Shown: positions 36,001 through 39,000 of the stretch, piece after piece
Position numbering within the stretch: position 1 is the first letter of the stretch
Layout of the letters: the number at the start of each line of letters is the position of its first letter
Source of the DNA: a virus
Lineage: Duplodnaviria > Heunggongvirae > Uroviricota > Caudoviricetes
Strand: one strand, 5' to 3'
Length of the DNA stretch: 41,846 nt
IMG/VR virus record: IMGVR_UViG_2778261638_000003
Location: 1-41,846 of that record
Made by a program: the position numbers

Positions 36001-39000
36001 TGTGGTGTTGCACTACAGGGACGTTTTGAATGAGGTTATGGATGTTTATTCTTAATCAGAAAATGATCATCGGTGGAGAACGCTGGTTTACGCCAATGAA
36101 GGACTTAAAACCTGTAGATGGGTTAAAACTGTTGGTGGCAAGCAGCGATAACGATCAGTATCGCTCCCGTAATGCATTAATCCGTCGTCACATAGAGAAA
36201 ATGGATGCCAGTTTGCATGTCGGAACGAAAGAATTTGATATTGCAAAGGTCGACGAGGTGGATTCTGTTGATGATTTACTTATTGATAACGCCGCTCGTT
36301 ATTTACTGAAAGACTGGAAAGGGGTTGGTGAACTGGTGGATGGGGTTGAGGTCGCGCTGGAATATACACCAGAGCGAGGGGCCACGCTGCTCAAGCAGAA
36401 TCCAGAGTTGTACTGGCAAATTCTTGCTGAAGCCGCCAGCATCGCCCAGGGAAAAGAGCAGCAGAAGCAGGATACGATAAAAAAGCCATAGCCGCCCAGC
36501 GGTGGTTATCGGAGTTCGGGGGCGAAAAGGGGGAAAAGGCAAGGTGGACGAGAGAAAAACTCAGGTTGCCACCGATACCGGAGCCAGAAATAGACCCCGT
36601 TGTCCGTGAGTTATTGTATGCGTACTCAGTAATATCTCGTTCCAGGCGTTATGCGGGCATGTCCGGGGTTCCGCTGCCTTTATCAATATCTGACGTGCAC
36701 GACTACTTAAAAGCACACCCAATATTGATAGATAGTGATGAATTTGAAGCAGTGATCTTTGCGCTGGATGATCAGTATGTTTCTCAATCCAAAACTGTTG
36801 ATGGGATATTGATTAATTAATTTAATATTTTTTAGTAATTGTCTGAATTACAATGTGCACACATATAGTTTGATGAGAGATTGATAGTTGACTATCGAAT
36901 GTGGTGGATATTTTAATGCTGCCAGCCAGATTAATTCTGGCTGTTATAACAATGATTTGTGAAATGACGGTGATTTTATGAAAAAAGCAGTGTTGACTAC
37001 CATTATCGCTTCAGCCTTGTTTGCAACTGGCATTGCAAATGCTGAATTGAAGCAGAATACTATTTCTCTTGGTTATGCCCAAAGCCATGTTAAAGCCGGT
37101 GGAGAAAGCCTTGATGAGAATCCTTCAGGGGTAAATATTAAGTATCGCTATGAGCTGGATGATAAATGGGGCGTTGCATCTTCATTTACGTACACAAATC
37201 AAGAATACGATTATTATTTTGCAGGCTCTAAAATTGGAAATGGAGAACTGGATTACTATTCACTAGCTGCCGGTCCAGCCTATCGTTTCAATGATTACTT
37301 CAGTGCATATGGCTTATTAGGTGTAGCGCATGGACGTGCTGAAGCGACGATTCTGGGATACTCTGACTCTTCAAGCAAGACTTCGGTTGTATATGGTGCT
37401 GGTATTCAGTTTAATCCTGTACCAAATTGGGTAGTTGACGCATCCTATGAGTACACCAAATTGGGCGATGTGAAAGTAGGTACTTGGATGACCGGTATTG
37501 GTTATCGTTTCTGATAATTTCCTTTCCTCTGTTGTCTGGCCCCGCTTATCAAGCGGGGCTTTTTATTTGTCCGGAGTAACTAAATGACAGAGCAAACTTC
37601 GCGTCTTGCAATAATTATTGATAGCACTGGAGCGAAAAATAATGCTGACAATCTGACCTCCTCCCTAGTCAAAATGACGCAGGCCGGAGAAACTGCTGCA
37701 AATAGCGCAGGGAAAGTGACCAGGGCAACAGAAGATGAGAAGAACGCGCTCGCAAAATTAAAGGCAGCTATTGATCCTGTAGGTGCCGCAATTGATACTG
37801 TCGGTCGACGCTATTCTGAATTAAAGAAATATTTCGGCAAAGGGCTTATTGATAAAGAAGAATATGAATTTCTTGCCCGTAAACTTAATGAAACTACAGC
37901 GGAATTGAGCGGGGTTGCGCAAGCGCAGAGAGAAGCCGCGAAGGCCGGAAAATTTGCTGCTGCCCAGCAGGAAGCGCAGGCTCAGGCCTTTCAAAGAATG
38001 CTGGACAAGATCGACCCTCTGGCCGCGGCGCTAAGAAATCTTGACCAACAGCAGGATGAACTTAATGCAGCACTTTCATCCGGGAAAATAAATGGCTCTC
38101 AGTTTGATAATTACAGCCGAAAAATACAGGAAACGCGGCGAGAGCTAACAGGAGAGGCTCAGGCAGAACGAGAAGCAGCAAAAGCGCATGATGAACAGGT
38201 TGCTGCTTTGCAACGTCTGATTGCTCAACTCGATCCTGTCGGAACAGCTTTTAATCGCCTGACAGAGCAGCAAAAGCAACTTAGCGAAGCAAAAGCCAGG
38301 GGGATGCTTTCTCCTGAAATGTATGAGGAGCTCTCAGGAAAACTCCGTGCTATGCGGAGAGAGCTTGAGGCTACTGAATCGCAATTAAGTAAAACCGGAA
38401 TGTCGGCAAAACAAACGGCTTTTGCTGTGCGCATGTTGCCTGCACAAATGACTGATATTGTAGTTGGATTGTCCACAGGCCAGTCACCTTTTATGGTGTT
38501 AATGCAGCAAGGCGGTCAGCTAAAAGATATGTTCGGTGGTATTGGCCCGGCGATCAAAGGTGTTGGTTCTTATGTAATGGGGTTAATTAATCCTTTTACC
38601 TTGGCTGCTGCAGCCGTTGGTGTTCTGGGGCTGGCTTACTATAAAGGCTCTCAGGAGCAGGACGAATTTAATAAATCTCTTATTCTTACCGGAAATCAGT
38701 TGGGGGCAACGAGTGGGCAATTGGCGGATATAGCTCAACGTGCCGGGGATGCAGCTGATTCGACAACTGGTGCTGCGGCGGCTGTATTAAACCAGCTTGT
38801 GCGTTCGGGAAAGGTAGCGAGTAGTTCGCTGGAGCAGGTGACGACAGCGATAGTAAAAACGAGCGAATTAACTGGAATATCGACCGATCAACTGGTTAAT
38901 GATTTCAATGAAATAGCAAAGGATCCTGTCAGTGCCATATCAAAACTTAATGATCAGTACCATTTTCTGACACTGGCGACTTATAACCAGATTAAGGCGC

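What the first reader, a model, noticed from the sequence alone, without database searches (positions are those of the whole stretch)
36479..36820. Canonical A_AAA_AAG -1 frameshift site at the end of the tail chaperone gene
The dnaX-type heptamer sits in the zero frame 4 nt before the G-like stop, and the -1 frame is open from there to 36820 (…KKAIAAQRWLSEF…LPPIPEPEIDPVV…), predicting a G/GT-type fusion. The track shows only the downstream piece as a separate ORF.
Basis: partly seen in the sequence, partly recalled or inferred. Interest (0 to 1): 0.4.

Follow-up and report, generated by a model that had tools for sequence, protein, structure and literature searches.

The report
Tail chaperone G/GT frameshift site
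This is an ordinary lambda-style programmed -1 ribosomal frameshift that makes a short and a long tail-assembly chaperone in a Rac-like E. coli prophage; comparison with relatives supports it strongly, but public annotations of this gene family leave it out.

Summary
A_AAA_AAG lies at 36479-36485, in phase in the gene between the tail tube and tape measure genes. The TAG stop follows one codon later, so the gap is 3 nt, not 4. The -1 frame is open from 36431 to the TAA at 36818-36820.

- At the same codon, 15 of 17 species-level relatives carry A_AAA_AAG or lambda's own G_GGA_AAG.
- The synonymous third base of the preceding codon changes along with the heptamer (ATA/GTA before AAA, GTG before GGA).
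- The most variable codon position switches from the zero frame to the -1 frame exactly at the heptamer.
- 27 conserved -1-frame codons come before the first possible start codon.
- The zero-frame stop lies anywhere from 0 to 105 nt downstream of the heptamer.

Predicted products are G (149 aa, 16.9 kDa) and GT (259 aa, 29.3 kDa). The proteins belong to the YdaY / PHROG 313 chaperone family and show no detectable sequence similarity to lambda G or T.

No stimulatory RNA structure is conserved. A local hairpin (36486-36512, -13.1 kcal/mol) occurs only in the E. coli clade and in one of the two Tatumella loci folded.

None of the 12 public records I inspected annotates the join. This is a new, unannotated member of a well-known kind and is of low interest. 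Nothing was tested experimentally.

The parts
36042..36491 (+). G-like tail assembly chaperone gene, zero frame, 149 aa (16.9 kDa). The likely true start is ATG 36042, with the SD-like GAGG at 36033-36036. The mechanical ORF begins at ATG 36030. RefSeq calls a truncated 119-aa 'protein YdaY' from TTG 36132.
   Evidence: PHROG 313 E=2.5e-46. The N-terminus is conserved across genera. The phage record ON470595 uses the equivalent start.
36479..36485 (+). Slippery heptamer A_AAA_AAG in zero-frame phase. This is the proposed site of tandem -1 slippage of the P- and A-site tRNA-Lys.
   Evidence: At the same codon, relatives carry A_AAA_AAG or G_GGA_AAG. The codon-position variability switches frame here.
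36485..36820 (+). T-like extension in the -1 frame: 111 codons plus the TAA stop. It has no start codon before TTG 36566. GT = join(36042..36485, 36485..36820), 259 aa, 29.3 kDa.
   Evidence: phrog_1189 E=7e-32 and the C-terminal part of PHROG 313. Conserved as protein from the first codon after the heptamer. Pfam Phage_TAC_18 below threshold in 13 of 16 members.
36486..36512 (+). Hairpin directly 3' of the heptamer (CCAUAGCCGCC-CAGC-GGUGGUUAUCGG, -13.1 kcal/mol). A possible clade-specific stimulator. Its GC-rich upper stem starts about 4-6 nt after the heptamer.
   Evidence: Kept in the E. coli clade through a C-to-U change that still pairs (G-U) and a loop change. Absent in the Citrobacter, Raoultella, Serratia and Pantoea relatives, with no consensus structure. 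z = -1.5, not significant.
36449..36455 (+). Second in-phase heptamer, G_GGA_AAA, also inside the overlap. Not conserved in relatives and a weaker motif. At most a minor alternative shift site.
   Evidence: Relatives have GGT/GGC/GGG AAA here. Reporter efficiencies come from PMC4066793, supplementary table.
35021..35983 (+). Tail tube (major tail) protein gene, the upstream neighbour. By analogy with lambda it is the expected binding partner of the T domain.
   Evidence: PF18906 Phage_tube_2 E=4.7e-32.
37584..40817 (+). Tape measure protein gene. By analogy with lambda it is the expected binding partner of the G domain.
   Evidence: PF06791, PF09718 and PF24622.

Best explanation
The gene at 36042-36491 encodes the tail assembly chaperone of a Rac-like lambdoid prophage of E. 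coli. Most ribosomes read ...ATA AAA AAG CCA TAG and release G (149 aa). A minority slip back one nucleotide. This happens when the two tRNA-Lys molecules occupy AAA (P site) and AAG (A site) and re-pair with AAA AAA. Those ribosomes then read GCC ATA GCC... for 111 more codons to the TAA at 36818, giving GT (259 aa).

What the sequence and comparisons show: the in-phase heptamer, the open -1 frame without a start codon, conservation of the site and of the frame switch, and family membership of both halves.

What is inferred by analogy with lambda G/GT: the slippage itself; a low efficiency of the order of a few percent, so that G far exceeds GT; binding of the G part to the tape measure protein and of the T part to the tube protein; and absence of both proteins from virions.

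A hairpin abutting the heptamer may raise efficiency in the E. coli clade. It is not a conserved part of the signal.
For: 1. The heptamer is in phase, one codon before the stop, and the -1 frame is open 36431-36820.
2. Synteny is tube, G, T, (moron), tape measure, M, L.
3. G matches PHROG 313 'tail assembly chaperone' over profile positions 14-149 and T over 180-248. The fusion matches 15-248 in one stretch with E=4.7e-51. phrog_8233 'tail assembly chaperone' also spans the junction (fusion residues 81-247, E=1e-7).
4. Among 17 species-level loci, 10 have A_AAA_AAG and 5 have G_GGA_AAG at the same codon. All 80 viral contigs retrieved have A_AAA_AAG.
5. The synonymous third base of the preceding codon matches the heptamer: ATA/GTA before AAA, GTG before GGA.
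6. The zero-frame stop lies 0, 3, 21, 75 or 105 nt after the heptamer, while the -1 frame stays open for 100-124 codons in nearly all loci. Three viral contigs (39-61 codons) and two non-canonical genome loci are the exceptions.
7. Mean pairwise variability by zero-frame codon position is 0.23/0.13/0.52 in the 90 nt upstream. It is 0.27/0.52/0.33 in the 81 nt downstream. The most variable position therefore moves to the third position of the -1 frame at the heptamer.
8. The -1 peptide A[IL][AE]AQ[KR]WL.EFGGE.GEK.RW.REKL.LPPIPEPEID is conserved from the first codon after the heptamer, 27 codons before the first possible start, TTG 36566. That TTG has no properly spaced SD.
9. tblastn of the fusion hits phage genomes as two pieces in two frames down to 31% identity, in Pseudomonas and Acinetobacter phages.
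10. [quoted passage not shown] Reporter values are 0.29% and 0.28% alone, 4.3% and 3.8% with IS911 stimulators, and 39% and 43% with the IS3 pseudoknot (PMC4066793 supplement; PMC5009743).
11. Lambda itself has G_GGA_AAG 15 nt before the G stop.
Against: - There is no experimental evidence for the fusion protein in this phage family.
- No stimulatory element is conserved. The consensus fold is -0.8 kcal/mol with 3 pairs. The local hairpin is not significant against shuffles (z = -1.5) and begins with zero spacer.
- The upstream AGGA (36470-36473) lies only 5 nt from the heptamer and is missing in several relatives.
- G and T show no detectable similarity to lambda G or T (hhalign probability 0.1) or to Sakai ECs1801.
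- The local Pfam and NCBIfam copies have no significant hit.
- The AlphaFold model of G is of low confidence (pLDDT 62) and the fold searches were uninformative.
- A few relatives have non-canonical heptamers: G_GGG_AAG, C_GCA_AAG and G_GAA_AAG.
Confidence: 0.9

Rival explanations
1. T is a separate protein that starts at TTG 36566 or a later start codon, and no frameshift occurs. This is how the ORF track and the public records present it.
For: A mechanical ORF 36566..36820 exists. GenBank and RefSeq records annotate a separate small 'hypothetical protein' here.
Against: The 27 codons upstream of TTG 36566 are conserved as -1-frame protein, with the most variable position at the -1-frame third base. 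There is no start codon in 36431-36565, and only an AGG abutting the TTG with no spacing. Annotated starts of the small ORF differ between records. PHROG 313 and phrog_8233 profiles run continuously across the junction.
Confidence: 0.04
2. GT is made by transcriptional slippage. RNA polymerase would add or drop an A in the A6 run, rather than the ribosome slipping.
For: The heptamer contains a run of six A. Transcriptional slippage is known to yield frame-shifted products in bacteria (PMC5009743).
Against: Relatives with G_GGA_AAG at the same codon have only three A, yet keep the same two-frame organisation. What is conserved is the X_XXY_YYZ phase, including the covarying synonymous base, not the run length. 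From my own knowledge, productive slippage in E. coli generally needs runs of about 8-9 or more A or T.
Confidence: 0.03
3. The split is a decayed gene or a sequencing error: a once continuous GT gene broken by a 1-nt indel in a homopolymer.
For: The database contains a few fused ORFs (P0001-P0003).
Against: The same split occurs in all but one of more than 100 independent loci from at least 12 genera, and in 1,071 of 5,426 complete E. coli genomes. The fused ORFs arise from a deletion or from indels elsewhere, not from a different A-run length. The rest of the structural module in the window is intact.
Confidence: 0.01
4. The main shift site is the upstream G_GGA_AAA at 36449-36455 rather than A_AAA_AAG.
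For: It is in phase and inside the overlap, and the -1 frame is open from it for 121 codons.
Against: It is absent in most relatives, which have GGT, GGC or GGG AAA. The 30 nt between the two heptamers still vary most at the zero-frame third position. In reporters, G_GGA_AAA is 2.5- to 8-fold weaker than A_AAA_AAG (0.12% against 0.29% alone, 0.51% against 4.3% with IS911 stimulators; PMC4066793 supplement).
Confidence: 0.02

Closest known systems
Phage lambda G/GT programmed -1 frameshift (Levin, Hendrix & Casjens 1993; Xu, Hendrix & Duda 2004, 2013, 2014, as summarised in PMC5009743)
   Same: The gene pair lies between the major tail and tape measure genes. The slippery heptamer sits a few codons before the G stop. 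The T frame has no start of its own, and the shifted product is longer. Lambda's own heptamer, G_GGA_AAG, occurs at the homologous codon in five species-level relatives of this gene. No conserved stimulatory structure was found here either.
   Different: There is no detectable sequence similarity to lambda G or T. The heptamer here is A_AAA_AAG. The tube protein is of the Phage_tube_2 type and the head module differs (a related phage record calls the coat protein 'P22 Coat protein'). An Ail/Lom moron with its own terminator separates T from the tape measure gene.
YdaY of the E. coli K-12 Rac prophage, with the PHROG 313 / phrog_1189 families (precomputed Pfam accession PF27119.1 on homologues)
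   Same: About 88% nucleotide identity to loci annotated ydaY / 'protein YdaY', with the same heptamer and T frame. The window also carries the Rac-type RalA sRNA.
   Different: Public records name it 'hypothetical protein' or 'protein YdaY', start it at an internal TTG, and do not join it to T. The window's copy has a different T C-terminus and the Ail/Lom insertion. PF27119 is not in the local Pfam copy, so I could not read its name.
E. coli O157 Sakai prophage Sp9 ECs1801 tail assembly chaperone (cluster A_AAA_AAG_25, marked [true], in Sharma et al. 2014, PMC4066793)
   Same: A_AAA_AAG in phase, here immediately followed by TAG, at the end of the G-like gene between the major tail and tape measure genes.
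   Different: It is an unrelated protein sequence, with no BLASTP alignment, and shorter (124 aa). The YdaY family is not among the five prophage clusters listed in that study.
dnaX tau/gamma frameshift signal of E. coli
   Same: The heptamer A_AAA_AAG is identical, and the mechanism relies on the single E. coli tRNA-Lys (PMC5009743).
   Different: In dnaX the shift shortens the product, is about 50% efficient, and depends on an upstream SD-like element and a downstream stem-loop. These dnaX details are from my own knowledge. Here the product is longer and neither stimulator is conserved.

Membership tests
G/GT-type tail assembly chaperone -1 frameshift (Xu, Hendrix & Duda 2004) | Two overlapping ORFs located between the major tail (tube) gene and the tape measure gene | tested here: met
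   Tube 35021-35983 (PF18906), G 36042-36491, T frame 36431-36820, tape measure 37584-40817. An Ail/Lom moron (36978-37514) is inserted between T and the tape measure gene. It is absent in 88%-identical relatives.
G/GT-type tail assembly chaperone -1 frameshift (Xu, Hendrix & Duda 2004) | The downstream ORF is in the -1 frame, overlaps the 3' end of the upstream ORF, and lacks its own start and ribosome-binding site | tested here: met
   The -1 frame is open from 36431. The first start codon is TTG 36566, with only an abutting AGG. The 27 codons before it are conserved as protein.
G/GT-type tail assembly chaperone -1 frameshift (Xu, Hendrix & Duda 2004) | Canonical slippery heptamer X_XXY_YYZ in zero-frame phase within the overlap | tested here: met
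   A_AAA_AAG at 36479-36485. About 0.01 such sites are expected by chance in the overlap.
G/GT-type tail assembly chaperone -1 frameshift (Xu, Hendrix & Duda 2004) | The slippery site and the two-frame arrangement are conserved among diverged homologues | tested here: met
   15 of 17 species-level loci have A_AAA_AAG or G_GGA_AAG at the same codon. The synonymous base covaries with the heptamer. The variability periodicity switches frame at the heptamer. Exceptions are Pectobacterium G_GGG_AAG and one fragmentary Tatumella contig.
G/GT-type tail assembly chaperone -1 frameshift (Xu, Hendrix & Duda 2004) | G and T parts are recognisable as tail assembly chaperone domains | tested here: inconclusive
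   In favour: PHROG 313 'tail assembly chaperone' (E=2.5e-46 for G, 4.7e-51 for the fusion, with T over profile positions 180-248) and phrog_8233. Pfam Phage_TAC_18 is below threshold in 13 of 16 T homologues, best E=2.4e-4. Against: no significant hit in the local Pfam or NCBIfam copies, no similarity to lambda G or T, and only weak fold hits to 'tape measure chaperone' models (E of at least 0.005).
G/GT-type tail assembly chaperone -1 frameshift (Xu, Hendrix & Duda 2004) | Two proteins are made at a fixed ratio (G far above GT), both are needed for tail assembly, and neither is in the virion | not testable with these tools
   This needs protein detection and genetics. The lambda facts are taken from PMC5009743.
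dnaX-type frameshift signal | A_AAA_AAG heptamer in phase | tested here: met
dnaX-type frameshift signal | SD-like element about 10 nt upstream of the heptamer | tested here: not met
   Only AGGA at 36470-36473, 5 nt upstream. It is part of the conserved CAG GAN (Q-D/E) codons and is absent in Siccibacter, Serratia and Pectobacterium relatives.
dnaX-type frameshift signal | Stable stem-loop about 5-7 nt downstream that stimulates the shift | tested here: inconclusive
   The hairpin 36486-36512 (-13.1 kcal/mol) starts with zero spacer, and its upper stem begins after 4-6 nt. It is not conserved across the family.
dnaX-type frameshift signal | The shifted frame terminates almost at once, giving a shorter product | tested here: not met
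   The -1 frame continues for 111 codons, so GT has 259 aa against 149 aa for G.

The most novel reading that the evidence does not exclude
Within this one chaperone family the shift site would be evolutionarily plastic. It has been swapped between A_AAA_AAG and G_GGA_AAG, changing K to G in the protein, with the preceding synonymous base changing to match. In more distant relatives it is replaced by heptamers with imperfect P-site re-pairing: G_GAA_AAG in Pseudomonas phiPSA1-like phages, C_GCA_AAG followed by TAA in Erwinia phage Gungnir39, and G_GGG_AAG in a Pectobacterium prophage. If those phages still make GT, slippage of the A-site tRNA on A_AAG alone would be sufficient for this class. 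The family would then give a natural series for measuring how P-site re-pairing and the clade-specific hairpin set the G:GT ratio.
Probability: 0.25. Interest if true: 0.3.

Novelty: new member of a known kind. Interest (0 to 1): 0.2.

Why it matters
The main value is for annotation. This chaperone family is present in about one in five complete E. coli genomes (1,071 of 5,426), and in Citrobacter, Klebsiella, Raoultella, Serratia, Pantoea and other prophages. In every record I inspected it is labelled 'hypothetical protein' or 'protein YdaY', often with a truncated start. Its essential GT product is missing, and T is shown as an orphan small ORF or not at all. Recording join(36042..36485,36485..36820) would correct the proteome of these prophages. 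It would also add a well-supported positive case for frameshift predictors such as PRFect (PMC10885494). It does not change what is understood about recoding or tail assembly.

Tried and rejected
- Bare heptamer count in the window: not enriched (15 against 15.7 expected). It is therefore not used as evidence.
- Local Pfam and NCBIfam scans of G, T and the fusion: nothing significant.
- PDB sequence searches with the G and T profiles: no hits for G and only chance-level hits for T.
- AlphaFold2 of G with a 15-sequence alignment: pLDDT 62. Foldseek against PDB gave nothing. Foldseek against BFVD gave only weak hits, some named 'tape measure chaperone' (E 0.005-0.4). I treat these as a hint only.
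- Conserved downstream RNA structure: RNAalifold found 3 pairs at -0.8 kcal/mol. Single-sequence folds of relatives were no better than shuffles.
- A dip in nucleotide diversity at the site within the E. coli clade: no sharp dip specific to the site.
- Rfam scan: no frameshift element.
- Profile comparison with lambda G and T, and BLASTP with Sakai ECs1801: no similarity.
- Literature search for ydaY together with frameshifting: nothing.
- Search for an annotated join in this family: none in the 12 phage and RefSeq records inspected.
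Full report
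**What is in the sequence**

The window reads ...CAG GAT ACG AT[A AAA AAG] CCA TAG at 36471-36491. The heptamer A_AAA_AAG at 36479-36485 is in X_XXY_YYZ phase of the ORF that ends with TAG at 36489-36491. Translation from 36485 gives AIAAQRWLSEFGGEKGEKARWTREKLRLPPIPEPEIDPVV..., 111 codons to the TAA at 36818-36820. The -1 frame is open from 36431. Its first possible start codon is TTG 36566, which has only an abutting AGG and no spaced Shine-Dalgarno sequence. The mechanical ORF list shows only 36566..36820 as a separate ORF.

**Is it more than chance**

The bare heptamer is not enriched: 15 copies on both strands against 15.7 expected. Phase and place are what count. In 5,424 codon positions of the late operon there are only three in-phase copies of the efficient motifs A_AAA_AAG, G_GGA_AAG and C_CCA_AAG. 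About 0.01 are therefore expected in the 19-codon overlap. Among all 24 in-phase X_XXW_WWN heptamers, only the two inside this overlap are followed by a long -1 ORF: 111-121 codons, against 0-37 elsewhere.

**Context**

The window is an intact-looking Rac-like lambdoid prophage of E. coli.
- It is 99.8% identical to chromosomal loci in several E. coli strains.
- It is about 88% identical to loci whose gene is annotated ydaY / 'protein YdaY'.
- The locus occurs in 1,071 of 5,426 complete E. coli genomes.
- A RalA sRNA of the Rac ralR/ralA system lies at 1557-1735.

The gene order is as follows:

| Coordinates | Gene |
|---|---|
| 35021-35983 | tail tube (PF18906) |
| 36042-36491 | G-like ORF |
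| to 36820 | T frame |
| 36978-37514 | Ail/Lom outer-membrane protein |
| 37584-40817 | tape measure |
| 40810 onward | M-like |
| 41148 onward | L-like |

**Identity of the proteins**

G matches PHROG 313 'tail assembly chaperone' (E=2.5e-46) over profile positions 14-149. The -1 peptide matches phrog_1189 (E=7e-32) and positions 180-248 of PHROG 313. The predicted fusion matches positions 15-248 of that 258-position profile in a single stretch (E=4.7e-51). It also matches phrog_8233 'tail assembly chaperone' across the junction. Thirteen of 16 T homologues weakly match Pfam PF23812 Phage_TAC_18, with best E=2.4e-4, below the family cut-off.

The local Pfam and NCBIfam copies give nothing significant. 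Homologues carry the precomputed accession PF27119.1, which is not in the local copy. There is no detectable similarity to lambda G or T or to the Sakai chaperone ECs1801. An AlphaFold model of G was of low confidence (pLDDT 62) and the fold searches were uninformative.

**Comparative evidence for the frameshift**

I collected 17 loci from different species and 80 viral contigs, plus annotated phage and E. coli records.
- At the codon homologous to 36479-36485, ten species-level loci carry A_AAA_AAG. Five (Raoultella, Serratia, Pantoea and two Tatumella) carry G_GGA_AAG, which is lambda's own shift site. An Acinetobacter phage at 31% identity also has G_GGA_AAG there.
- The encoded residues change from KK to GK, but slipperiness is kept. 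The synonymous third base of the preceding Ile or Val codon changes along with the heptamer: ATA/GTA before AAA, GTG before GGA.
- The zero-frame stop lies 0, 3, 21, 75 or 105 nt after the heptamer. The -1 frame stays open for 100-124 codons in nearly all loci.
- Across 18 diverged sequences, mean pairwise variability by zero-frame codon position is 0.23/0.13/0.52 in the 90 nt upstream of the heptamer. It is 0.27/0.52/0.33 in the 81 nt downstream. The most variable position jumps to the third position of the -1 frame exactly at the heptamer.
- The -1 peptide is conserved from its first codon (A[IL][AE]AQ[KR]WL.EFGGE.GEK.RW.REKL.LPPIPEPEID), well before any start codon.
- tblastn of the fusion hits every related phage genome as two pieces in two frames.

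Together these results show that the -1 frame is translated from the heptamer onward and that selection maintains a slippery site there.

**Mechanism**

Inferred: tandem -1 slippage of the P- and A-site tRNA-Lys from AAA AAG to AAA AAA, as at other A_AAA_AAG sites in E. coli. This gives G (149 aa, 16.9 kDa) as the major product and GT (259 aa, 29.3 kDa) as the minor product.

In E. coli reporters, A_AAA_AAG and G_GGA_AAG shift 0.29% and 0.28% without stimulators. The values are 4.3% and 3.8% with the IS911 stimulators, and 39% and 43% with the IS3 pseudoknot (PMC4066793, supplementary table).

In lambda the G:GT ratio is about 30:1 and is crucial for assembly. G binds the tape measure protein, the T domain binds the major tail protein, and neither is in the virion (PMC5009743). 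I transfer those roles here by analogy only.

**Stimulators**

A hairpin directly follows the heptamer (36486-36512, -13.1 kcal/mol). Its GC-rich upper stem begins 4-6 nt downstream, which is a plausible spacing. Within the E. coli clade its variants remain foldable: a C-to-U change that keeps a G-U pair, and a loop change. One of the two Tatumella loci (L019) folds into a similar hairpin. Against this:
- It is absent in Citrobacter, Raoultella, Serratia, Pantoea and other relatives.
- The consensus fold of 16 sequences has 3 pairs and -0.8 kcal/mol.
- The z-score against shuffles is only -1.5.
- Diversity in the E. coli clade shows no dip specific to the site.
- The upstream AGGA lies 5 nt from the heptamer and is not conserved.
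- Rfam finds no frameshift element.

The conserved signal is therefore the heptamer alone. The 'dnaX-type' label applies only to the heptamer.

**Rivals**
- Independent initiation of T. This is contradicted by the conserved, start-less 27 codons and by the periodicity switch.
- Transcriptional slippage. This is contradicted by relatives whose heptamer has only three A.
- A broken gene or sequencing error. This is contradicted by the same split in more than 100 loci from many genera. The few fused database ORFs result from a deletion or from indels elsewhere.
- The upstream G_GGA_AAA at 36449. It is not conserved and is a weaker motif, so it is at most a minor extra site.

**Novelty**

Programmed -1 frameshifting in tail assembly chaperone genes is textbook and widely conserved (PMC5009743). 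A_AAA_AAG at the end of a different E. coli prophage chaperone, ECs1801, was already listed as a true case (PMC4066793). The YdaY / PHROG 313 family is not among the five prophage clusters listed in that study. None of the 12 records I inspected joins G and T. RefSeq also starts G at an internal TTG. This is a new, unannotated member of a known kind. It is useful for annotation and as a clean comparative example, but not surprising.

Noticed in passing
window 36821-37570: An Ail/Lom family outer-membrane beta-barrel gene (36978-37514, PF06316) is inserted between T and the tape measure gene. The region has low GC (0.30-0.39) and a strong intrinsic terminator at 37538-37560 followed by a T-run, which is the pattern of a classic moron. 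The gene is absent from 88%-identical Rac-like loci, and the C-terminus of T differs downstream of ...ALDDQY, so the insertion replaced the 3' end of T.
   Followed up: partly
L109 1704-2060; L103 2250-3507; L104 2190-3468: Relatives in Klebsiella, Pseudomonas and Acinetobacter phages also carry unrelated extra genes between T and the tape measure gene. This junction looks like a recurrent insertion hot spot in the family.
   Followed up: no
window 36042-36132: RefSeq/PGAP starts the G gene at an internal TTG (36132), giving the 119-aa 'protein YdaY' or 'hypothetical protein'. The 30 residues upstream (MFILNQK.IIGGERWF...) are conserved across genera, and ATG 36042 has a GAGG Shine-Dalgarno sequence. 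The public start is probably truncated, propagated from the K-12 Rac remnant.
   Followed up: partly
L017 2920-2926; L105 1986-1992; L103 1887-1893; L106: Some relatives have non-canonical heptamers at the homologous shift codon: G_GGG_AAG (Pectobacterium odoriferum prophage), C_GCA_AAG followed directly by TAA (Erwinia phage Gungnir39), and G_GAA_AAG (Pseudomonas phages Aurca01 and phiPSA1). Either A-site A_AAG slippage is sufficient there, or those copies are impaired.
   Followed up: partly
window 1557-1735 and 15732-15907: Rfam finds RalA sRNA, the antitoxin of the Rac-prophage RalR toxin (197 bits), and a sok antitoxin RNA of a hok/sok system (106 bits). The prophage therefore carries two type I toxin-antitoxin loci.
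   Followed up: no
P0001 (E. coli NB16F79_39920, 240 aa): One E. coli genome encodes a G-T fusion in a single frame. An internal deletion removes about 19 codons plus one base upstream of the heptamer (...ILAEA|GYDKKAIAAQ...). That prophage would make only a GT-like protein and no free G.
   Followed up: no
window 35926-35932: An in-phase A_AAA_AAA lies 51 nt before the stop of the tail tube gene. The -1 frame is open for only 12 codons, so a shift would give a slightly shorter tube protein variant. This is probably incidental.
   Followed up: no
window 38807-38813 and 26419-26425: These are the only other in-phase efficient heptamers in the late operon: G_GGA_AAG inside the tape measure gene, and A_AAA_AAG inside ORF 26186-27280. 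Both run into a -1 stop within 3-8 codons, so a shift would only truncate the protein.
   Followed up: no
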